A stretch of DNA of 32,000 bases from the NCBI RefSeq assembly GCF_000017945.1, contig NC_009776.1, positions 1,020,001 through 1,052,000 on the forward strand, in the 5' to 3' direction. Numbering within the stretch: the stretch's first letter is position 1; each line of letters starts with the position of its first letter. The position numbers were made by a program, and so were the translations under genes. The notes beneath the pieces were generated by a model. That model had not been told where the DNA came from and ran no database searches. It saw only the letters and a program-made list of their open reading frames with translations. Source of the DNA: Ignicoccus hospitalis KIN4/I (GTDB lineage Archaea; Thermoproteota; Thermoprotei_A; Sulfolobales; Ignicoccaceae). Below, piece by piece: positions 20,931 through 28,745 of this stretch.

Positions 20931-22130
20931 TCATCCCCCGAAGAACTCGTCCGCCAGCAGCTCTTCTTTCTTCTCTTCCTTCCCTTTTTCCTCTCCTCCC
21001 TTCTCCTCTTCCTCTTTCCTCTCCCCGCCCTCCTCGAACAGCAGTCCCTCCTCCGGTATCTCCTCCTCTTCGCCGCCCAACATCTCCTCGCCGAAGAAGG
21101 CCTCCTCGCCGAGCTCCGGCGGGGCCTCTGCTGTGACCTCCACCTCCTTCGCCTCCTTCTTCAGCAGCTCCTTCGCTATGTTCTTTATCCTCTCGACCAA
21201 GTAAGGTTCGGTAAGGTCCAGCACTATTATGTTCTTCATCTGGACTAACATTGAGGCCTCAAAGGCGTTGGCCGGGAGTATGATGACGTAACGGTCCACG
21301 CCAGTGTCCAAGGCCTTGGGCACTCTGGAGGTTATCGCTAGCGAGGGGTCCTTCTCCTCTGCGAAGTCTATCGCCAACACGCGCCCTTGCGGGGTCCTCG
21401 CGATTATGTCGAACACGTGCTCTATGCCGCTCCTCCCCCTCTCCTTGCCGGGGCTCTCCACCATGAGGCCGAGTTCCTTCAAGGCCTCAATTATGTCTTG
21501 CTTGTGCAGCTCCCCGCTGGTCAACAGCCTCTGGCCCAGGGGGGTTAGGGTGAACTCGTACACTGGCTCGTAGCTGGTATTGAGGTAGTCGAACTGGTGG
21601 CCGCAGTTCCTACAGTAGAACACTATGAGCGGCTTGTTGCTCTTCCTCTTACAGTTCAAGCACTCGAAGACCTTACCTATGACGACGTAGTCGAGGCCCT
21701 CCTTCCTCAAGGGCCTCTTACACTTGGGGCACACCAGCTGGCCGGTGTTGGGGTCCCTGAACTTGGACTCCGTGTCTATGTAGCCACACAAGGTGTGCTG
21801 GATTATGTAGGTGGGCTCTATGTTAAAGCTCTTACACCAGGGGCAGAGCAGCCTAGAGGAGACGTGTATTGAGCCGCATCGCGGACAGTGGATAAGCCTG
21901 TCCACAATCGACTTGTCGACCAACTTGTACCTTATGAGCTTTTCAATCGTGCTCCTCCAGTTGGGCAAGTCCTCGAAGGGAGGGTACCTAATTCCGGTCT
22001 CCAGCCCTATCTTGGGCCTAACCGAACCCATCTTGAATATCGTAATTAGGATCTTGCGCGCTATAGGGTCGCTTATGAGCTCCTTCTTAACCTCCTCCGG
22101 GATGCCTAGGGTCGTGGGCTGAAAGGACAC
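20931..22130 (-). CDS. wHTH-like + multi-zinc-ribbon + PD-(D/E)xK-like domain protein with an acidic C-terminal tail
   Basis: There are five CxxC pairs: CPRC/CPWC, CPKC, CLNC and CRNC. A nuclease-like core is GIEHVFDIIARTPQGRVLAIDFAEEK...RYVIILP. In the tail, 29 of the last 74 residues are Glu, and it ends ADEFFGG. The gene has its own TATA (minus-strand ATTTAATAAA, 22164-22173) and a GTG start. Confidence 0.6.
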   Translation of the reverse strand: MSFQPTTLGIPEEVKKELISDPIARKILITIFKMGSVRPKIGLETGIRYPPFEDLPNWRSTIEKLIRYKLVDKSIVDRLIHCPRCGSIHVSSRLLCPWCKSFNIEPTYIIQHTLCGYIDTESKFRDPNTGQLVCPKCKRPLRKEGLDYVVIGKVFECLNCKRKSNKPLIVFYCRNCGHQFDYLNTSYEPVYEFTLTPLGQRLLTSGELHKQDIIEALKELGLMVESPGKERGRSGIEHVFDIIARTPQGRVLAIDFAEEKDPSLAITSRVPKALDTGVDRYVIILPANAFEASMLVQMKNIIVLDLTEPYLVERIKNIAKELLKKEAKEVEVTAEAPPELGEEAFFGEEMLGGEEEEIPEEGLLFEEGGERKEEEEKGGEEKGKEEKKEELLADEFFGG

Positions 22131-22163
22131 TAACGCTCCCGACGCTACGGGTTCACTTCGCCC

Positions 22164-22173
22164 TTTATTAAAT
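22164..22173 (-). promoter_or_regulatory. TATA-box candidate for the zinc-ribbon protein gene, inside the 51-nt gap after the HerA-like gene
   Basis: The minus strand reads ATTTAATAAA about 38 nt upstream of GTG 22130. Confidence 0.35.
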
Positions 22174-22181
22174 GTGGAGTT

Positions 22182-23987
22182 CTAGAGGTAGCCCCTAAGG
22201 GCCGCCTCCACCGCCGCCGCCAAGGCGCGGGCCGGGTCGCAGCCCCCTTCCCCGAGCACGAAGGAGCACTCCCCCACCCTCGCCTTAACTCTGTTCCCTA
22301 CCTTGCTCAAGTATATTTTCTCGGTTACTATAATTCCCTTAGCCCTCTCGATGTCGTCCTTAGTGAAGCTGGTCCCCAAGAGTTCGGCCACCTTAGGCGC
22401 CAACTCCTCCACAGCCCGGACCCTCTCCTTTATCAAGGTCGCCTTCCCCCACTCCTCCACCAAGTCCAAGTCCCCTCCGCCGTAGTCCAGCACCTTCGGC
22501 CTGACCTTGATGAAGGCCGGCTTGGGGAGCGCCGGGCCGACCACTATGGCTTCCCCGGGCTTGAGGGAGGGCAAGTCCGAAGCCAGCCTCGCCCCCAGCT
22601 CCTCCGAGGAGTTCGCCACCGCCTCTTGATCCTTCGGGTTAATTATCCTCATTATTATTTGACTCTGACACTGGCTGAGGACCGTTTGGTCCACCCTGCT
22701 GGGCCTCTGGGTTATTATGGTGAGCAGCACTCCGAACTTCCTCCCCTCCGAGGCAATCCTCTTCAGTAAGCTCGTGGTCCAAACGTTCTCCTCGGACGGG
22801 GGAGGGGCGAAGCGGTGGGCCTCCTCGACCACCACCATTACCGGGAAGGGGTACTTCTCCCCGGGCACCTCCCTCATGTACCTCACCCTCGCTTCGAATA
22901 TCCTCTTGAGGACGTCGTATACCAAGTGGACTTGGACCTCCTTCTTTATGCCGCTCAAGTTGAACACGGTCGCGGTGGAGGGCCTCAAGAACGACATTAA
23001 GGGTGTGGGTCTAGTGTCGTACACGCCGAGCCTCTCCAGCTCAGAGACGTACTTTATTAAGTCGTAGACCGGGTCGGGGCCCTTCCTAACCACGCTCCAC
23101 AGCTTCTTCACCGCCTTCTCTTCTATGGGAAAGTCTCTGGACTTGAGGAGCGAGGCGAACTGGTTGAAGGAGCGAGACACCTCCGAGGCCTCCGCCACCG
23201 CGTTTAGGTACTCCACCATCCTCCTCAAGCTTAGGGCCTCCCGGTCGCCCCCCTCCTTGAAGGCCTTCTGCGCGGCCGACCTGACCCCTTCCAGCACTGC
23301 CCTTATCCTCGTAGCGGTCTTGGGTATCCCCATGACGAACGCGAGTTCGTCGGTATCTACCGTGGTCAAGTCTATCTTGTAGAGCACGTCCCCCTCTTGA
23401 TCGGCGTGGGCCTTCAGTACTAACGCGTCCCCTCCGAGCTCCTCCACCTTCTCCTTTATCGGTACGTACTCGCCGTGAGGGTCCAGTATTAAGACGGTAG
23501 CGCCCTTCTTCAACAGCTCCTCTATCAAGACCACGCTGGTCCAAGTCTTCCCGGAGCCCGTAGCCGCTATTATTGCTAAGTGTCTCACCAAGGCGTTCAT
23601 GTCCAATCTTATTGGGACCGAGGGCCTGTTCTTCAAGTTTCCAATCCATAGCGCCCTCTCCTCGGGAACCTCGTAGAGCGCCGAGACGTCCTCGTCGGAA
23701 GCTAAGTACACCCACTGTCCTACTGAAGGTGTCCCCTCGTCCAAGCTCCTCACCCTCGCTAAGGCGACGGCTGTCTTGCCGTCCAACGGCATCTTGGCTG
23801 CCACGTCCCACGGGACGTCGGAGGGCAAGAACGGCTTGACCCTTATCCACTCCACGTAACCCAACACCTTCTTGCCGTCCTCCTCAAAGTATACAAATTC
23901 GAACTTGCTCAGCTTCGTAGAGCTGTCGAGAACTACGGTATAGGTGTCAAGCCCCTCTACCTCCACCACCCTCCCGACGACCTTCAC
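22182..23987 (-). CDS. HerA-family (DUF87/FtsK-HerA superfamily) hexameric ATPase paralog
   Basis: The N-terminal barrel-like segment is MKVVGRVVEVEG. Walker A is AATGSGKT and Walker B is VMVVVEEAHRF. The HerA hallmark LLTIITQRPSRVDQTVLSQCQSQIIMRIINPKDQ is present. A ~110-aa C-terminal extension follows. Confidence 0.85.
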   Translation of the reverse strand: MKVVGRVVEVEGLDTYTVVLDSSTKLSKFEFVYFEEDGKKVLGYVEWIRVKPFLPSDVPWDVAAKMPLDGKTAVALARVRSLDEGTPSVGQWVYLASDEDVSALYEVPEERALWIGNLKNRPSVPIRLDMNALVRHLAIIAATGSGKTWTSVVLIEELLKKGATVLILDPHGEYVPIKEKVEELGGDALVLKAHADQEGDVLYKIDLTTVDTDELAFVMGIPKTATRIRAVLEGVRSAAQKAFKEGGDREALSLRRMVEYLNAVAEASEVSRSFNQFASLLKSRDFPIEEKAVKKLWSVVRKGPDPVYDLIKYVSELERLGVYDTRPTPLMSFLRPSTATVFNLSGIKKEVQVHLVYDVLKRIFEARVRYMREVPGEKYPFPVMVVVEEAHRFAPPPSEENVWTTSLLKRIASEGRKFGVLLTIITQRPSRVDQTVLSQCQSQIIMRIINPKDQEAVANSSEELGARLASDLPSLKPGEAIVVGPALPKPAFIKVRPKVLDYGGGDLDLVEEWGKATLIKERVRAVEELAPKVAELLGTSFTKDDIERAKGIIVTEKIYLSKVGNRVKARVGECSFVLGEGGCDPARALAAAVEAALRGYL

Positions 23988-24062: not shown

Positions 24063-24785
24063 TTGAGGGCGCACTTCTTGGGCACGGGCCCGGCCAGCGG
24101 GTGGCCGGCCTACGGGAAGGAGACGGAGAAGAGGAGGAGGCCCAGCACTTACGCCTTCGAGTGCGGGGAGGCCAAGTTCTTTATAGACGTGGGCTCTTGG
24201 GAGGCCGCCTTAGAGGGGGCGAAGAGGCTGGGGAACGTAGACTTCATCTTGATAAGCCACGCCCACGTGGACCACTGGGGAGGGTTGAACTTCTTCCGCT
24301 GGGGCCCCGAGATGCCCACGTTCTCCATCAAGGAGACGTTCGAGCACCCCTACTTCAGAGAGATCAAGGACGCCCCGTTCTCCCTCAAGCTCCTCGAGGT
24401 AAGACCCTTTGAAACGTTTGAAATAAAGGGAGTGAAGATAACTCCCTTCCCCTTGAACCACTCCATACCGGCCAGCGGGTTCTTAGTGGAGTGTGGGAGC
24501 AAGCTGGCCTACGCGCTGGACACCAAGTGGCTGCCGCAAGAGAGCTTGGAGCTCTTGAAGGGCTCGGTGGACTACCTAATAGTGGACGCCGCCTTGCCGA
24601 AGGGCGAGGAGGGAGCGCACAACACTTACGAGGAAGCGTTGAGGTTGGGGAAGGAGATAGGAGCTAAGGTGGTCTTCGCGGTTCACTTGCTGCCCTCGGT
24701 TAGGGAGGCGGAAGTGCTGGCGGAGGGAGAGGCGCTGGGGGTGAAGGTCGAGGTCCCCGACGACGGCGATTCCTTCGAACTTTGA
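24063..24785 (+). CDS. MBL-fold metallo-hydrolase (PhnP/PqqB-like)
   Basis: FLGTG at the N-terminus, the metal motif ILISHAHVDHWGG (HxHxDH), and the later PLNHS, YALDT and AHNT motifs. Confidence 0.85.
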   Translation: MRAHFLGTGPASGWPAYGKETEKRRRPSTYAFECGEAKFFIDVGSWEAALEGAKRLGNVDFILISHAHVDHWGGLNFFRWGPEMPTFSIKETFEHPYFREIKDAPFSLKLLEVRPFETFEIKGVKITPFPLNHSIPASGFLVECGSKLAYALDTKWLPQESLELLKGSVDYLIVDAALPKGEEGAHNTYEEALRLGKEIGAKVVFAVHLLPSVREAEVLAEGEALGVKVEVPDDGDSFEL

Positions 24786-27331
24786 ATCTTCTTCAGCACC
24801 ATCTCCCTCAGCCTCTGGAGGAGCTTCCTCTTATCCTCCATGAGTACTACGTCGCTGAAGGCGTTAGCCACTATGACGTGAGAGAAGGGGCTCGGCACGT
24901 CCAAGGGGCCGACCACCTTCACCTCCACCTCCCCTTCAACTATCCTCCTCACCGTCTCTTCCGCCGCTTCCACGTTCATGTAATCTTCCAGGATTTCCCG
25001 CAAGGTCTCCTTGTAGATGGGGAAGTCTTCCAAGCCCTCCACAACTTTTATGAGCTGTTGAGCGGAGAGCTGCATCCTTTCCGGACTCTTCTCCCTCCCC
25101 CTGTACCTCTTCAATATCATGAAGCCCCTCTGCGCGCAGTGCCTAAACCTCCTCTTGAAGAGCTCCGTCCTCTTCACCGCCTCCTCCACGTAGCGCCTCA
25201 AGTTCTCAGGGGTCACGGAGAAGACCAACTCCCTCACGTCCACCTCCGGGTGGCCGGGCACGGTTAACATGAACCCGTAGTCGGTCACAGTGACGCTCAC
25301 GTTAGTGCCCGTGAGCTGGCCCAGCTTGTAGGCGTAGGCCCGGGAGAGGGCGTCTATCCCCCTCCTTCCTATTAGGAAGTGGAAGATGAAGTTCCTCCTG
25401 TCCTCCTCATCCCATATCTCCACCAAGTACGTGCTGTCGCCCGGGACTGCGCCGACGTACTCCAGCTGCTCTTGGACGTACTCCTTCAAGCTCCTAGCGG
25501 CCCAAGGCTCCAGCTGGTACTCCTCGACGAGCTGTTCTACGCTCATATCCACCAACATCTCCCTAAACTTGGCCACTTCTCTGGCGGAGTCGTAGGCAAG
25601 GGGGAGCATCTCGCTGAACCAAGCCGGGACCGTGGGCCTCTCGCTGGGCGCGGGCTCCACGTAGACGCTCATTCCCTTGGAGTACAAGAACCTATACGTC
25701 TTCCCGGAGAGCACGAAGACGTCCCCGGGGACCAAGTTCTGGGCGAAGAGCTCCTCCACGTGTCCCAACAGCTTGCCGCTCTTAGCGTCTACCACCTTTA
25801 CCTTGCTCTCGTCCGGGATCGTGCCGGCGTTCATTAGGAATATCATTCTGCTGGTCCTCTTCCTCCTCAAAACGTTCCTCTCCTTGTCCCAGAACAGCTT
25901 GGGGAACACCTTCTCCTCCTCTAAGCCGTACTCGCCCGCCAAGTACTTCACGACGGACTCGAAGTCCTTCTCGTCCAACTCCCAGTAGGGGTAGGCCCTC
26001 TTCGTAACCTCCAGCGCGAGCTCGTATGGAACTTCGCCCAGTTCCAAGGTCAAAGCTATTAAGTGCTGAGCGAGGACGTCCAAGGCGTTCTTGGGTATCC
26101 TCACCCTGTCTATCTTCTTCTCCCTGGCCAACTTCGCGAGGACCGCGTTCTCGAGCAAGTCGTCCCTGTCCACCACGATTATCCTTCCCTTGGAAACCGC
26201 GTCTATTCTGTGCCCGGCCCTCCCGACCCTCTGCAGAAGCCTGCTCACGCTCTTGGGGCTGGAAAGCAGTATTACCAAGTCCACGTGCCCTATATCTATT
26301 CCCATCTCCAAAGAGGTTGAGGTCACCACCACCTTCAGCTCTCCCTTCTTCAGCTTCTCCTCCACCTCTAGCCTGACTTCCCTGGAGAGTGAGGAGTGGT
26401 GGGCGGCCACCTTGTCCGCCAAGCCCTCCTTCTCCAAGTACTGCTTCAACTTGAAGGCGACCTTCTCGGTGGAGTGCCTCGTGTTAGTAAATATCAAGAC
26501 TGCCCTGTGCTCCTTTATCAGCTTCACCATAGTGCGGTAGATCGCGTCGTTGAGCTCCTCCGCGTCGGCGTTAACTATGTCCTTCACGGGGCATATCACC
26601 TTTATGTCCACGGGCTTGGCGAACCTCGCGTCCACTATCCAGACCTCCCTCCCCCTCCCGCCCAAGAATTTGGCCACGGTCTCCAACGGGTGGATGGTGG
26701 CGCTCAGCCCGACCCTCTGGAACTCGCCGGCGTGCAAAGCTAAGCGCTCCAAGGTCAAGGTTAAGTGGGTCCCTCTCTTGCTAGAGGCCATCTCGTGGAT
26801 CTCGTCTACAATGACCCACTTGACGTCCTTGAGCTTTTCCCTAAACTTGGGGGAGGCCAAGGAGAGGGCGAGGCTTTCCGGAGTAGTAATTAGGATGTGG
26901 GGAGGCCTCCGGAGCTGCTTCTGCTTCTCCGAGGGAGGGGTGTCGGAGGTCCTAATGGCCACCCTTATCTCTGGGAAGCCTTCCTCCACCCTCTGGTAGA
27001 TCTCGTTGAGCGGCTCTATCAAGTTCCTCCTCATGTCGTTTCCAAGCGCCCTGAGGGGGGAGACGTAAACGGCGTAGACCTTGTCCTCCAGCAGCCCTCC
27101 CTCCGCCATCCTAAACAAGCTGTCTATGATACCCAAGAACGCCGCTAAGGTCTTCCCAGTCCCGGTGGGGGAGGAGATGAGTACGTTCTTGCCCTCCTTG
27201 ATAAGCTTTATCGCCCCCCTCTGGGGCGGGCTCAAGTTGCCGTACTTCTCCTTGAACCAGTCCCTAACGGTCGGGTGGAGGAGTTGTAAGACCTCCTCGG
27301 AAGGGGGGAGCTCTCGGAGGAGCTCGTACAC
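24683..27331 (-). CDS. lhr: Lhr-type (Lhr-core) superfamily 2 DEAD/DEAH-box helicase
   Basis: Motif I is SSPTGTGKT, motif II is VIVDEIHE, and LSAT, TSTSLEMGIDIG and QRVGRAGH are present. A long C-terminal DEAD/H-associated region follows, consistent with ~880-aa archaeal Lhr. The start is GTG. Confidence 0.9.
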   Translation of the reverse strand: MYELLRELPPSEEVLQLLHPTVRDWFKEKYGNLSPPQRGAIKLIKEGKNVLISSPTGTGKTLAAFLGIIDSLFRMAEGGLLEDKVYAVYVSPLRALGNDMRRNLIEPLNEIYQRVEEGFPEIRVAIRTSDTPPSEKQKQLRRPPHILITTPESLALSLASPKFREKLKDVKWVIVDEIHEMASSKRGTHLTLTLERLALHAGEFQRVGLSATIHPLETVAKFLGGRGREVWIVDARFAKPVDIKVICPVKDIVNADAEELNDAIYRTMVKLIKEHRAVLIFTNTRHSTEKVAFKLKQYLEKEGLADKVAAHHSSLSREVRLEVEEKLKKGELKVVVTSTSLEMGIDIGHVDLVILLSSPKSVSRLLQRVGRAGHRIDAVSKGRIIVVDRDDLLENAVLAKLAREKKIDRVRIPKNALDVLAQHLIALTLELGEVPYELALEVTKRAYPYWELDEKDFESVVKYLAGEYGLEEEKVFPKLFWDKERNVLRRKRTSRMIFLMNAGTIPDESKVKVVDAKSGKLLGHVEELFAQNLVPGDVFVLSGKTYRFLYSKGMSVYVEPAPSERPTVPAWFSEMLPLAYDSAREVAKFREMLVDMSVEQLVEEYQLEPWAARSLKEYVQEQLEYVGAVPGDSTYLVEIWDEEDRRNFIFHFLIGRRGIDALSRAYAYKLGQLTGTNVSVTVTDYGFMLTVPGHPEVDVRELVFSVTPENLRRYVEEAVKRTELFKRRFRHCAQRGFMILKRYRGREKSPERMQLSAQQLIKVVEGLEDFPIYKETLREILEDYMNVEAAEETVRRIVEGEVEVKVVGPLDVPSPFSHVIVANAFSDVVLMEDKRKLLQRLREMVLKKIQSSKESPSSGTSTFTPSASPSASTSASLTEGSK

Positions 27332-27371: not shown

Positions 27372-28745
27372 TTAGCCCCAGCAGCCGCTGGCCAAGTAGA
27401 CCTTGCCCTTTATCACTTGCTGCTGCGTGGTCAGCCCGCCCACCGTGGGGTTCACTACAGCCGTGTAACACGTCCTCTTGCCCATAGTTAAGGTTATGAA
27501 CAGCGAAGAGACCTCTTGGGGCACGTTCTTCACCTTGAACTTCAGCTCGCCGACGTTGCTCTTTATAGTAATGGTGGTGTTGGTGAAGTTGCCCAAGCCG
27601 AACACCCTCTTTACCTTGGGCTCCAAGGATATCCCGGTGGCCACCGCAACCGCGGGCTCCAGCTTGCCTATGGTGAAGTTCTGATACATGTTGTTAACGT
27701 CGAATATGTAGGCCTCGAAGCCCCTCCTAGTGGCGACCAAGAAGAGGGCGTCGCCCACGTAGCCGTTGCCCAAGTAGTCCCCCACCCCTACGAAGTTGTA
27801 TATGCCGGGCAAGGAGTAGAGCACGGTCTCGTTGTCCAATATGTCGTGGAACCTCAGCACGAAAGTTCCCCTCTCGCCCAAGCTTATCAGCATGAAGTAG
27901 GGCTTGCTCGAGTAGGGCTCGTTCTCCAAGAATATGGGGGCGAACGTGGCGACCTTCATCTTAATTAAGTCTTCCTCGCCCTTCGCCTCCCCTCCCTTGC
28001 CCTTGTAGTGGTAATACATTATCGGCGACATCTTCCTCAACCACAAGACCAAACAGCCGTCCCCGTCCAACAAGTCAGGCAACGGGTTGGTGGCGCTAAC
28101 GTTGGCGCCCAAGTTGAAGGTTATGTTCGAGGCCACCTTGTCCTTGAGCACGTCGTACAGGGTGCAGTAGACCCAAGTGTCGTTGCCGAGCTTCTCCTCC
28201 CTCACCTCCCAAGCGTAGACGTCGTTCTTCTTAACGAAGATGCCTACGCGGGCGTCGGGGGAGTGGGCGTACTTGCCCAAGGGCTCGGCCTCGTCCCCGT
28301 ATATCGCGTACAGCGTGCCGTTGACGCCGAGGAGGAGCTTCCCGTCGAGGGTGGCGGACTCCCCCTTCCTAGGGTCGAAGACCGGCACCACCGGGCCCTT
28401 TATCTCAAACTTGCCCACTACCTTGTTACCCTTTATGGTCCATATCTCCTGAGTCTCGTTTATAGTGTTCACGAAGAGGAACGCCGTGCCGTCCTCGTCC
28501 GGGTAGGTTAAGGGCTGGGCGGTGGCCGCCCCCTCGAGCTCCACGAACTCGAGGGGGTACTCGACGCTTACCTTAGGCACCTCCTCGGCGGGGGCGCCGA
28601 AGCGCTCTTGCTGGGTGACCTCCGCCTTGGGCGGTTTGCTGCTCAGCACGAGGAAGGTTATGCCGAGGCCGGCTATCACCGCGACCGCGACGGAGGCCAA
28701 CACTAAGAGCTTCTTGTTTATTTGGACTTTCTGAGGAGAGCTCAT
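27372..28745 (-). CDS. N-terminally anchored extracellular protein, predicted N-glycosylated (unknown family)
   Basis: TM anchor LLVLASVAVAVIAGLGITFLVL. The product is beta-rich with nine N-x-S/T sequons (NET, NGT, NDT, NIT, NVS, NET, NFT, NFT, NTT) and ends ...ASGCWG. Confidence 0.6.
   Translation of the reverse strand: MSSPQKVQINKKLLVLASVAVAVIAGLGITFLVLSSKPPKAEVTQQERFGAPAEEVPKVSVEYPLEFVELEGAATAQPLTYPDEDGTAFLFVNTINETQEIWTIKGNKVVGKFEIKGPVVPVFDPRKGESATLDGKLLLGVNGTLYAIYGDEAEPLGKYAHSPDARVGIFVKKNDVYAWEVREEKLGNDTWVYCTLYDVLKDKVASNITFNLGANVSATNPLPDLLDGDGCLVLWLRKMSPIMYYHYKGKGGEAKGEEDLIKMKVATFAPIFLENEPYSSKPYFMLISLGERGTFVLRFHDILDNETVLYSLPGIYNFVGVGDYLGNGYVGDALFLVATRRGFEAYIFDVNNMYQNFTIGKLEPAVAVATGISLEPKVKRVFGLGNFTNTTITIKSNVGELKFKVKNVPQEVSSLFITLTMGKRTCYTAVVNPTVGGLTTQQQVIKGKVYLASGCWG

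What the first reader, a model, noticed from the sequence alone, without database searches (positions are those of the whole stretch)
20931..23987. HerA-family ATPase followed by a wHTH + multi-zinc-ribbon + PD-(D/E)xK-like protein: candidate non-canonical HerA-nuclease module
The 601-aa ORF has the HerA/DUF87 hallmarks: Walker A AATGSGKT, Walker B VVVEEAHRF and ITQRPSRVD..LSQCQSQIIMRI. It also carries a ~110-aa C-terminal extension (..VGECSFVLGEGGCDPARALAAAVEAAL). Canonical archaeal herA sits with mre11, rad50 and nurA, and none of these is in the window. Instead, 51 nt downstream on the same strand is a 399-aa ORF with three parts. First, a helix-turn-helix-like N-terminus. Second, five CxxC pairs (C82/85, C96/99, C134/137, C157/160, C173/176), meaning 2-3 zinc ribbons. 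Third, a stretch with E237, D241 (FDIIA) and E258-x-K260 (IDFAEEK) followed by RYVIILP. That stretch reads like an Hjc/NucS/restriction-endonuclease core. NurA in repair and the PD-(D/E)xK nuclease DUF4297 in bacterial defence both act on HerA hexamers. This pair could therefore be an undescribed archaeal variant of that theme, in repair or in defence.
Basis: partly seen in the sequence, partly recalled or inferred. Interest (0 to 1): 0.72.

Follow-up and report, generated by a model that had tools for sequence, protein, structure and literature searches.

The report
Ordinary HerA beside a TackOD1-family protein
The two genes are real, but the ATPase is the lineage's normal DNA-break-repair HerA and its neighbour belongs to a widespread, uncharacterised zinc-ribbon family that normally sits beside pilus genes, so this is probably not a new HerA-nuclease machine.

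Summary
Both ORFs exist on the minus strand, 51 nt apart, and every quoted motif is present. The 601-aa protein is a HerA. Its closest relatives outside the Ignicoccus-like clade lie in nurA-herA-mre11-rad50 or nurA-herA operons, and those operon HerAs miss the NCBIfam cutoffs by the same margin. It is therefore the lineage's ordinary repair HerA, displaced from its operon.

The 399-aa protein belongs to the TackOD1/arCOG06883 family (about 2,000 representatives). Its C-terminal domain does fold as a PD-(D/E)xK nuclease (AF1548 and Mrr-like). The conserved residues are G232, S234, G235, H238, D241, D255, K272 and D275.

Adjacency to HerA holds only in the window's clade, in Ignicoccus pacificus-like genomes and in one distant MAG. 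It is broken in I. islandicus, absent from the other roughly 70 HerA loci examined, and seen in 1 of 80 metagenomic family loci. The family's conserved neighbour is a type IV pilus-like locus (69 of 80).

This is a new member of known kinds, of low to moderate interest.

The parts
22182..23987 (-). herA: 601-aa HerA-family hexameric ATPase. It is the orthologue of the NurA/Mre11/Rad50-linked double-strand-break repair HerA of Thermoproteota.
   Evidence: Pfam DUF87 at 3.5e-31. NCBIfam helicase_HerA 223 bits and HerA_Thermprot 189 bits, the same range as operon-encoded orthologues. PDB HerA chains match at 1e-44 to 1e-46. It is 40% identical to the Pyrobaculum operon HerA. Orthologous loci are nurA-herA(-mre11-rad50).
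22131..22181 (-). 51-nt intergenic gap. It holds a TATA-box-like TTTAATAAA at 22164-22172, 34-42 nt upstream of the GTG start of the downstream gene.
   Evidence: Read directly from the sequence. A/T-rich patches occur at the equivalent place in orthologous gaps but are only loosely conserved. That it acts as a promoter is inferred, not shown.
20931..22130 (-). 399-aa TackOD1/arCOG06883-family gene (whole ORF including stop).
   Evidence: Pfam TackOD1 at 5e-32. Homologues at 63-100% identity in Ignicoccus spp. and related MAGs. 2073 representative homologues at E<1e-3.
21921..22130 (-). N-terminal alpha/beta region (res 1-70), possibly winged-helix-like.
   Evidence: The AF2 model shows helices at 12-20, 22-34 and 58-67 and a hairpin at 40-48, with pLDDT >94 after residue 10. 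Only scattered sub-threshold wHTH Pfam hits appear across 30 family members.
21546..21920 (-). TackOD1 multi-zinc-ribbon region (res 71-195): five CxxC pairs plus H112-x-x-C115.
   Evidence: Pfam match covers res 57-195. The Cys residues are invariant or >=90% conserved in 70 diverse members. The region is all-beta in the AF2 model. The motif description is in PMC5847659.
21201..21518 (-). Mrr/AF1548-like PD-(D/E)xK-fold domain (res 205-310). D241 lies on beta2 and D255 on beta3. The canonical Lys position (257) is hydrophobic. K272 and D275 on the following helix are nearly invariant.
   Evidence: Foldseek hits. Profile against PDB: AF1548 at E=7.2e-6 with a residue-level alignment. Mrr_cat weak hits in 13 of 38 members. 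Column frequencies.
20934..21125 (-). Acidic, low-complexity C-terminal tail (res 336-399). It carries two [DE][DE]xFFG motifs (EEAFFGE at 342-348 and the C-terminal ADEFFGG). The tail is specific to Ignicoccus-level homologues.
   Evidence: Alignment A1 and a motif scan. The tail is absent from the ~325-aa family members.

Best explanation
The locus holds two ordinary genes that lie side by side through lineage-restricted synteny. It is not a dedicated HerA-nuclease module.

Gene 1 is the organism's standard HerA. This hexameric ATPase works with NurA, Mre11 and Rad50 in DNA-end resection. In the Ignicoccus-like lineage it has been separated from nurA, mre11 and rad50.

Gene 2 belongs to the widespread TackOD1/arCOG06883 family. 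It has an N-terminal alpha/beta (possibly winged-helix) region, a cluster of about three zinc ribbons, and a Mrr/AF1548-like PD-(D/E)xK-fold domain that lacks the canonical catalytic lysine. Elsewhere this family is fused to receiver (REC) domains, and it is encoded convergently with a type IV pilus-like locus (two T2SSF-like genes and a T2SSE ATPase).

The most likely mode of action, which is inferred, is a nucleic-acid-binding signalling or regulatory output protein. Its nuclease-fold domain would serve for binding or dimerisation, or be at most a non-canonical nuclease. In this reading it is tied functionally to the pilus regulon and not to HerA. The acidic tail with FFG motifs is a clade-specific docking peptide for an unknown partner.

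Shown: the domain identities, the fold, the residue conservation, the orthology of HerA and the neighbourhood statistics. Inferred: regulatory function, lack of canonical nuclease activity, and independent transcription.
For: HerA orthology. The best hits outside the clade sit in nurA-herA-mre11-rad50 operons (Pyrobaculum; herA-mre11-rad50 in Vulcanisaeta) or in nurA-herA pairs (Pyrolobus). The systematic scan of 80 genome loci agrees. Identity to the Pyrobaculum operon HerA is 40% over 564 aa. NCBIfam scores equal those of operon-encoded HerAs.

Family identity of gene 2. Pfam TackOD1 at 5e-32, and 2073 representative homologues, mostly ~325 aa and covering res ~20-305.

Fold. AF2 pLDDT 94.1 for the full model and 87.8 for the domain alone. 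Foldseek top hits are all PD-(D/E)xK. AF1548 matches by sequence at E=7.2e-6, with D241 aligned to its Asp and D255 to its Glu, while the Lys column is hydrophobic. In 70 sequences position 257 is V, A, I, L or S among the listed majority residues, and K is not listed.

Context. 69 of 80 metagenomic family loci have the pilus-locus neighbours and 1 of 80 has HerA. The nearest outgroups, L090 and L091 (42% and 38% identity), and L007 all have convergent T2SSF/T2SSE genes. The literature reports arCOG06883 in type IV pilus loci and REC-TackOD1 fusions.

Synteny breaks. I. islandicus has no HerA within 10 kb, L172 has HerA without the gene, and so does Pyrodictium.

Other points. A TATA-like box lies in the gap. 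The window is a housekeeping region with MetRS, EF-1alpha, Nuo subunits, FtsY, RpoG and GGPP synthase.
Against: The pair survives, on the same strand with gaps of 3-51 nt, in three backgrounds whose flanks are otherwise unrelated. These are the window clade, I. pacificus/L171 and the distant L007 at ~41% identity. That is more than pure drift would easily give and is compatible with co-regulation.

D241 and D255 are 70-79% conserved, and K272 and D275 are >=93% conserved. The domain is therefore under constraint, and catalysis with a relocated lysine cannot be excluded.

No pilus genes occur in the 32-kb window, so the usual partner is not nearby here. I could not check whether the window's genome encodes NurA or a second HerA elsewhere.

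The 80 metagenomic loci are dominated by one ~30%-identity clade with shared synteny, so the figure of 69 of 80 overstates the number of independent observations.
Confidence: 0.65

Rival explanations
1. In Ignicoccus-like archaea the TackOD1/REase-fold protein has been recruited as a HerA partner. It would be an accessory nuclease or DNA-end-binding factor loaded on or regulated by the HerA hexamer, supplementing or replacing NurA. It might dock through the acidic FFG tail.
For: Same-strand adjacency with short gaps is retained in the window clade, in I. pacificus/L171 and in L007, although all flanking genes differ. The PD-(D/E)xK fold is confirmed. D241, D255, K272 and D275 are conserved. 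nurA is not next to herA in the Ignicoccus-level loci. The clade has its own invariant C-terminal ELLxADEFFGG motif.
Against: In L007 nurA is still present directly upstream, so there is no displacement there. The pair is split in I. islandicus and L172, although the I. islandicus protein keeps the tail. L007's protein is adjacent to HerA but has no tail, so the tail does not track adjacency. The canonical catalytic Lys is absent family-wide. The family-wide partner is the pilus locus. A possible separate promoter lies in the gap.
Confidence: 0.17
2. An anti-virus defence pair analogous to the bacterial HerA-DUF4297 or HerA-SIR2 systems.
For: PADLOC HerA models hit the 601-aa protein (best 1.6e-57). 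The neighbouring gene has a nuclease-fold domain.
Against: PADLOC finds nothing for the 399-aa protein. DSB-repair HerA models score higher than the anti-phage HerA models (223 and 189 bits against 118 and 107). Orthologues sit in nurA/mre11/rad50 operons. The neighbourhood is housekeeping, with no mobile or defence genes. GC content across the two genes (0.565-0.586) is like the rest of the window.
Confidence: 0.03
3. The REase-fold domain is an active, non-canonical nuclease that uses K272 as a relocated lysine. It would act on DNA handled by type IV pili (DNA exchange or uptake), with HerA-NurA processing the same DNA. The nurA-herA-tackOD1/pilus juxtaposition in L007 would then be functional.
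For: In L007 the gene is flanked by nurA-herA on one side and T2SSF/T2SSE on the other. K272 and D275 are near-invariant and lie 17-20 residues after D255. From my own knowledge, not tested here, that spacing resembles where RecB/Cas4-type nucleases place an extra active-site motif on the following helix.
Against: Only a single locus shows all three elements. AF1548 has both the canonical ExK and the equivalent R..D, so K272/D275 looks like an additional family feature and not a replacement lysine. I had no model coordinates with which to measure distances.
Confidence: 0.08

Closest known systems
Archaeal DSB-repair HerA (NurA-HerA / Mre11-Rad50 system), Thermoproteales/Desulfurococcales type
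   Same: It has the DUF87 central domain, Walker A and B motifs, and the arginine-finger region ITQRPSRVD. It is 40% identical over 564 aa to the Pyrobaculum HerA encoded in a nurA-herA-mre11-rad50 operon. Its NCBIfam score profile is the same as that of operon-encoded orthologues.
   Different: In the window, and in Ignicoccus-level genomes generally, it is not next to nurA, mre11 or rad50. In I. pacificus and L171, rad50 lies 5.7 kb away on the other strand. It is ~100 aa longer than the 500-aa Sulfolobus HerA chain, as are its Thermoproteales orthologues.
TackOD1 (PF18551) / arCOG06883 proteins
   Same: The Pfam match is above the gathering threshold. It has five CxxC pairs plus HxxC, and the same overall ~20-305 core as ~325-aa family members across archaeal metagenomes.
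   Different: It has no REC domain and no type IV pilus genes nearby. It carries a clade-specific ~65-aa acidic tail with FFG motifs and sits downstream of herA. The two papers that describe the family mention only the zinc ribbons, not the C-terminal nuclease-fold domain.
AF1548 (PDB 1y88) and Mrr_cat-type PD-(D/E)xK domains
   Same: The alpha-beta-beta-beta-alpha-beta core matches at TM 0.65 and rmsd 3.6 A over 110 columns. A sequence-profile match at E=7.2e-6 aligns D241 and D255 with AF1548's Asp and Glu, and K272/D275 with its R..D. Mrr_cat weak hits occur in 13 of 38 members.
   Different: The lysine of the (D/E)xK motif is replaced by a hydrophobic residue throughout the family.
NurA, and the bacterial HerA-associated nucleases (DUF4297)
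   Same: The only shared theme is a nuclease-fold protein encoded next to a HerA.
   Different: The 399-aa protein has no NurA, PADLOC or other nuclease-family hit. From established knowledge, NurA has an RNase H-like fold, which is a different fold. In L007 a true NurA is encoded on the other side of herA.

Membership tests
Archaeal DSB-repair HerA | HerA/DUF87 central ATPase domain with Walker A, Walker B and arginine-finger motifs | tested here: met
   Pfam DUF87 at 3.5e-31. The motifs are read from the translation and are invariant in orthologues.
Archaeal DSB-repair HerA | N-terminal HAS-barrel | tested here: inconclusive
   Pfam HAS-barrel at E=0.021, 15.4 bits against a cutoff of 25.2. 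Several orthologues carry precomputed HAS-barrel hits.
Archaeal DSB-repair HerA | Score above the NCBIfam equivalog cutoffs (NF040819 970 bits; NF040937 800 bits) | tested here: not met
   The window protein scores 223 and 189 bits. HerAs encoded inside nurA-herA-mre11-rad50 operons score 175-229 bits. The cutoffs therefore exclude this whole clade and do not discriminate.
Archaeal DSB-repair HerA | Orthology to HerAs encoded with nurA, mre11 and rad50 | tested here: met
   The closest relatives outside the clade are in such operons. L007 has nurA-herA followed by the TackOD1-family gene.
Archaeal DSB-repair HerA | Adjacent nurA, mre11 or rad50 in this genome | tested here: not met
   No homologue in the 32-kb window. 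Whether they exist elsewhere in the genome could not be tested.
TackOD1 / arCOG06883 | Pfam PF18551 match above the gathering score | tested here: met
   111.4 bits against a cutoff of 32, covering res 57-195.
TackOD1 / arCOG06883 | Five CxxC motifs plus one HxxC | tested here: met
   C82/85, C96/99, H112/C115, C134/137, C157/160 and C173/176. The definition comes from PMC5847659.
TackOD1 / arCOG06883 | Type IV pilus locus context or REC fusion (typical, not obligatory) | tested here: not met
   No REC domain. No T2SSE or T2SSF among the window genes scanned. The context is present in 69 of 80 other family loci.
PD-(D/E)xK nuclease superfamily | alpha-beta-beta-beta-alpha-beta restriction-endonuclease-like fold | tested here: met
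   Foldseek: AF1548 at TM 0.65 and probability 1.00. NucS, Bax1, R2-RLE, Card1 and Can2 fill the top hits.
PD-(D/E)xK nuclease superfamily | Acidic residue on beta2 and acidic residue on beta3 | tested here: met
   D241 (49 D + 8 N of 70) and D255 (55 D + 6 E of 70), aligned to AF1548's Asp and Glu.
PD-(D/E)xK nuclease superfamily | Lysine two residues after the beta3 acidic residue ((D/E)xK) | tested here: not met
PD-(D/E)xK nuclease superfamily | Metal-dependent nuclease activity | not testable with these tools
   Requires biochemistry.
NurA | NurA domain (PF09376) | tested here: not met
   The 399-aa protein has no NurA hit. It is not recovered by the NurA jackhmmer search.
HerA-based anti-phage systems (PADLOC) | Recognised effector partner and defence-island context | tested here: not met
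   No PADLOC hit for the partner protein. The neighbours are housekeeping genes.

The most novel reading that the evidence does not exclude
In a subset of Desulfurococcales-like archaea, the TackOD1 protein with its lysine-less Mrr-like nuclease-fold domain is a real accessory factor of the HerA(-NurA) end-resection machine. It might couple DNA handled by type IV pili to recombinational repair. Its acidic FFG tail would be the docking peptide, and K272 a relocated catalytic lysine.
Probability: 0.12. Interest if true: 0.65.

Novelty: new member of a known kind. Interest (0 to 1): 0.3.

Why it matters
As a HerA-nuclease module it matters little, because the HerA is the ordinary repair enzyme and the linkage is lineage-restricted.

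Two modest points have annotation value:
- The large, uncharacterised TackOD1/arCOG06883 family (about 2,000 representative clusters) carries a conserved C-terminal Mrr/AF1548-like nuclease-fold domain with a D...D...K-x-x-D signature and no canonical lysine. The two papers that define the family do not mention it, and Pfam gives no significant match for it.
- NCBIfam's HerA equivalog cutoffs miss the whole Thermoproteales/Desulfurococcales HerA clade, including operon-encoded ones. Such genes can therefore be mistaken for paralogues.

If the minority reading were true, it would add a new partner to archaeal end resection.

Tried and rejected
- A full-length word-indexed search with the 399-aa protein gave only 12 close hits, probably because the acidic tail swamped the word index. 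I replaced it with a tail-trimmed profile in the exhaustive representative search.
- The search for related loci with the 70- and 8-sequence alignments failed because no conserved stretch could be back-translated. A 5-sequence alignment worked.
- The third word-indexed search, using the 70-sequence profile, gave only 25 hits.
- phmmer of the full 399-aa protein against PDB gave only noise, such as ribosomal zinc-ribbon proteins at E>0.3.
- NCBIfam and PADLOC gave nothing for the 399-aa protein.
- The defence-island reading was rejected on context and model scores.
- The NurA-like reading of the 399-aa protein was rejected: no hit, and the fold is different.
- I looked for papers on HerA/NurA in Ignicoccus and found nothing specific.
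- One family search failed on wrong ORF coordinates.


Full report
**Observation**

The two ORFs are real and lie on the minus strand. A 601-aa ORF sits at 22182-23987 and a 399-aa ORF at 20931-22130, separated by 51 nt. Pfam assigns the first to DUF87/HerA (3.5e-31). It assigns the second to TackOD1 (5e-32, 111 bits against a cutoff of 32, residues 57-195). The 399-aa protein has no NCBIfam or PADLOC hit. No NurA, Mre11 or Rad50 homologue occurs in the 32-kb window. The window is otherwise a housekeeping region. It encodes MetRS, EF-1alpha, Nuo subunits, FtsY, RpoG, PAC2, GGPP synthase, an Lhr-type helicase and one tRNA-Gly. GC content is even across it.

**The HerA is the ordinary repair HerA**

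- Homologues are abundant across Thermoproteota.
- The best matches in Pyrobaculum lie in a nurA-herA-mre11-rad50 operon, and those in Vulcanisaeta in herA-mre11-rad50.
- In Pyrolobus the orthologue is preceded by nurA.
- I fetched 80 HerA loci from species-representative genomes and searched them locally with HMMs for NurA, Mre11, Rad50 and the TackOD1 family. Thermoproteales loci carry nurA-herA-mre11-rad50 almost uniformly. Many Pyrodictiaceae/Desulfurococcales loci carry nurA-herA.
- The window protein is 40% identical over 564 residues to the Pyrobaculum operon HerA.
- It falls far below the NCBIfam equivalog cutoffs (223 of 970 and 189 of 800). That is not a sign of a paralogue, because the operon-encoded proteins score 175-229 bits.
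- Operon-encoded orthologues are also ~600-650 aa long, whereas the Sulfolobus HerA chain is 500 aa. The extra C-terminal length is therefore a clade trait.

**The 399-aa protein belongs to a large family**

The first search found only Ignicoccus-level homologues, probably because of the low-complexity tail. A tail-trimmed profile searched against 1.84 billion representatives found 2073 proteins at E<1e-3 (1297 at 1e-10). Most are ~325 aa and match residues ~20-305. In a 70-sequence alignment the zinc ligands are invariant or nearly so.

**The C-terminal domain: fold and residues**

Conservation in the 70-sequence alignment:

| Position | Count out of 70 |
|---|---|
| G232 | 69 |
| S234 | 67 |
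| G235 | 63 |
| H238 | 56 |
| F240 | 61 |
| D241 | 49 D + 8 N |
| D255 | 55 D + 6 E |
| K272 | 65 |
| D275 | 69 |
| P286 | 55 |
| E237 | 24 |
| E258 | E is not among the six commonest residues (each 9 or fewer) |
| K260 | 6 |

K260 varies even among Ignicoccus-level homologues.

AlphaFold2 with this alignment gives a confident model (pLDDT 94.1, pTM 0.83). A domain-only model has pLDDT 87.8. Foldseek against the PDB returns almost only PD-(D/E)xK nucleases. AF1548 is the top hit (E=7e-5, TM 0.65, rmsd 3.6 A over 110 columns), followed by Bax1, NucS/EndoMS, R2 endonuclease domains, DrdV, OkrAI, Card1 and Can2.

A profile of the domain also hits AF1548 by sequence (E=7.2e-6). In that alignment D241 pairs with AF1548's Asp and D255 with the Glu of its E-C-K motif. 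The Lys column is hydrophobic in this family, and K272/D275 pair with R..D in AF1548. Thirteen of 38 members weakly match Mrr_cat, and a few match AHJR-like and an 'inactive REase' family.

The fold prediction is therefore right. The proposed E258-x-K260 motif is wrong. The canonical lysine is missing throughout the family, which leaves catalytic competence open.

The N-terminal 'HTH' has only scattered sub-threshold winged-helix hits.

**Synteny**

The adjacency holds in these cases:
- Contigs collinear with the window, L009, L010 and L089. They share all flanking genes and so carry no independent information.
- Ignicoccus pacificus and a collinear MAG, L171. Here only the pair is shared and rad50 lies 5.7 kb away on the other strand.
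- L007, a distant MAG with ~41% identity for both proteins. The order is nurA-herA-TackOD1 gene, and the upstream gene passes Pfam's NurA threshold.

The adjacency is absent in these cases:
- The complete I. islandicus genome, where the gene has no HerA within 10 kb.
- L172, a 60%-identical HerA without the gene.
- Pyrodictium and Pyrolobus.
- All other HerA loci examined.

Seen from the other side, only 1 of 80 metagenomic TackOD1-family loci has HerA nearby, and that one is the 83%-identical L089.

The conserved neighbours are a convergent set: an unknown ~609-aa gene, two T2SSF-like genes and a T2SSE ATPase. The nearest outgroups, L090 and L091, and also L007, have the T2SSF/T2SSE genes immediately convergent. 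Two REC-fused relatives have neither HerA nor pilus genes nearby. This agrees with the literature, which describes arCOG06883 as 'double Zn-ribbon' proteins in thaumarchaeal type IV pilus loci and TackOD1 as a response-regulator output domain of obscure function. One caveat applies: most of the 80 loci belong to a single ~30%-identity clade, so they are not independent.

**Transcription signals**

The 51-nt gap contains TTTAATAAA at 22164-22172, 34-42 nt upstream of the GTG. That is a plausible archaeal TATA box, so the downstream gene may have its own promoter. Equivalent A/T-rich patches in orthologous gaps are only loosely conserved.

**Interpretation**

The best-supported reading (confidence about 0.65) is that an ordinary HerA lies next to a TackOD1-family protein through lineage-restricted synteny. 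The latter is most likely a nucleic-acid-binding signalling or regulatory protein with a degenerate or non-canonical nuclease-fold domain.

The pair does persist in three rearranged backgrounds with short gaps. That keeps a clade-specific functional link alive at about 0.17. A defence role is unlikely, at about 0.03.

The acidic tail with two or three [DE][DE]xFFG motifs and an invariant C-terminal ELLxADEFFGG is confined to Ignicoccus-level homologues. It does not track adjacency. I. islandicus has the tail but no adjacent HerA, and L007's protein is adjacent but has no tail.

**Novelty**

Both proteins are new members of known kinds. The nuclease-fold domain of the TackOD1 family appears not to be described in the two defining papers, and Pfam gives no significant match for it. 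That is a useful annotation point but not a new system.

Noticed in passing
window 20934-21125 (-), residues 336-399 of the 399-aa protein: The acidic, lysine-rich disordered tail carries repeated [DE][DE]xFFG motifs and an invariant extreme C-terminus ELLxADEFFGG in all Ignicoccus-level homologues (two or three copies). From memory only, it resembles the acidic linker plus hydrophobic L..LFG tail of the archaeal ribosomal stalk protein aP1. It is likely a short linear docking motif for an unknown partner.
   Followed up: partly
window 22164-22172 (-): A TATA-box-like TTTAATAAA lies in the 51-nt herA/TackOD1 gap, 34-42 nt upstream of the GTG start. It suggests an independent promoter and is only loosely conserved in orthologous gaps.
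   Followed up: partly
window 24683-27331 (-) and 24063-24785 (+): An 882-aa Lhr-type helicase (DEAD, Helicase_C, WH_Lhr, DEAD_assoc) lies directly upstream of herA on the same strand. Its 3' end overlaps by ~103 nt the 3' end of a convergent metallo-beta-lactamase-fold gene. The arrangement is conserved in L009. Two DNA-repair helicase/translocase genes are thus neighbours here.
   Followed up: partly
L001 1-6000; L171 1661-9864 (Ignicoccus pacificus and a related MAG): rad50 lies ~5.7 kb from herA on the opposite strand. Between them are a 654-658-aa DUF460 protein, a RIO2 kinase, a PDDEXK_19+HTH_3 protein and DUF61. No mre11 or nurA was detected in these 14-22 kb stretches, so the classical operon is scattered in this genus.
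   Followed up: no
L092-L168, immediately downstream and convergent to the TackOD1-family gene (e.g. L128 8927-10828): A ~609-aa protein with no Pfam match is the closest conserved neighbour of the family in 65 of 80 metagenomic loci (median gap 9 nt). It is followed by a ~140-aa protein, two T2SSF-like genes and a T2SSE ATPase. It may be an undescribed component of this type IV pilus-like locus.
   Followed up: partly
NCBIfam NF040819 / NF040937 against P0106, P0097 and P0083: HerAs encoded inside nurA-herA-mre11-rad50 operons of Pyrobaculum and Vulcanisaeta score only 185-229 bits against equivalog cutoffs of 800-970. This whole HerA clade is therefore left unnamed ('ATP-binding protein') in automatic annotation.
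   Followed up: yes
window 22182-22500 (-), HerA C-terminal ~100 aa; L007 5416-5766: The Pyrodictium occultum orthologue (P0049) carries a precomputed SWIM (PF04434) hit, and a stand-alone SWIM protein is encoded upstream of nurA-herA in L007. In the window only two Cys remain in the HerA C-terminal region (GECSFVLGEGGC).
   Followed up: no
window 27372-28745 (-): A 457-aa ORF with an N-terminal hydrophobic segment has no Pfam match. It is conserved at 54% identity in L009, between the Lhr helicase and the Fe-ADH-like gene.
   Followed up: no
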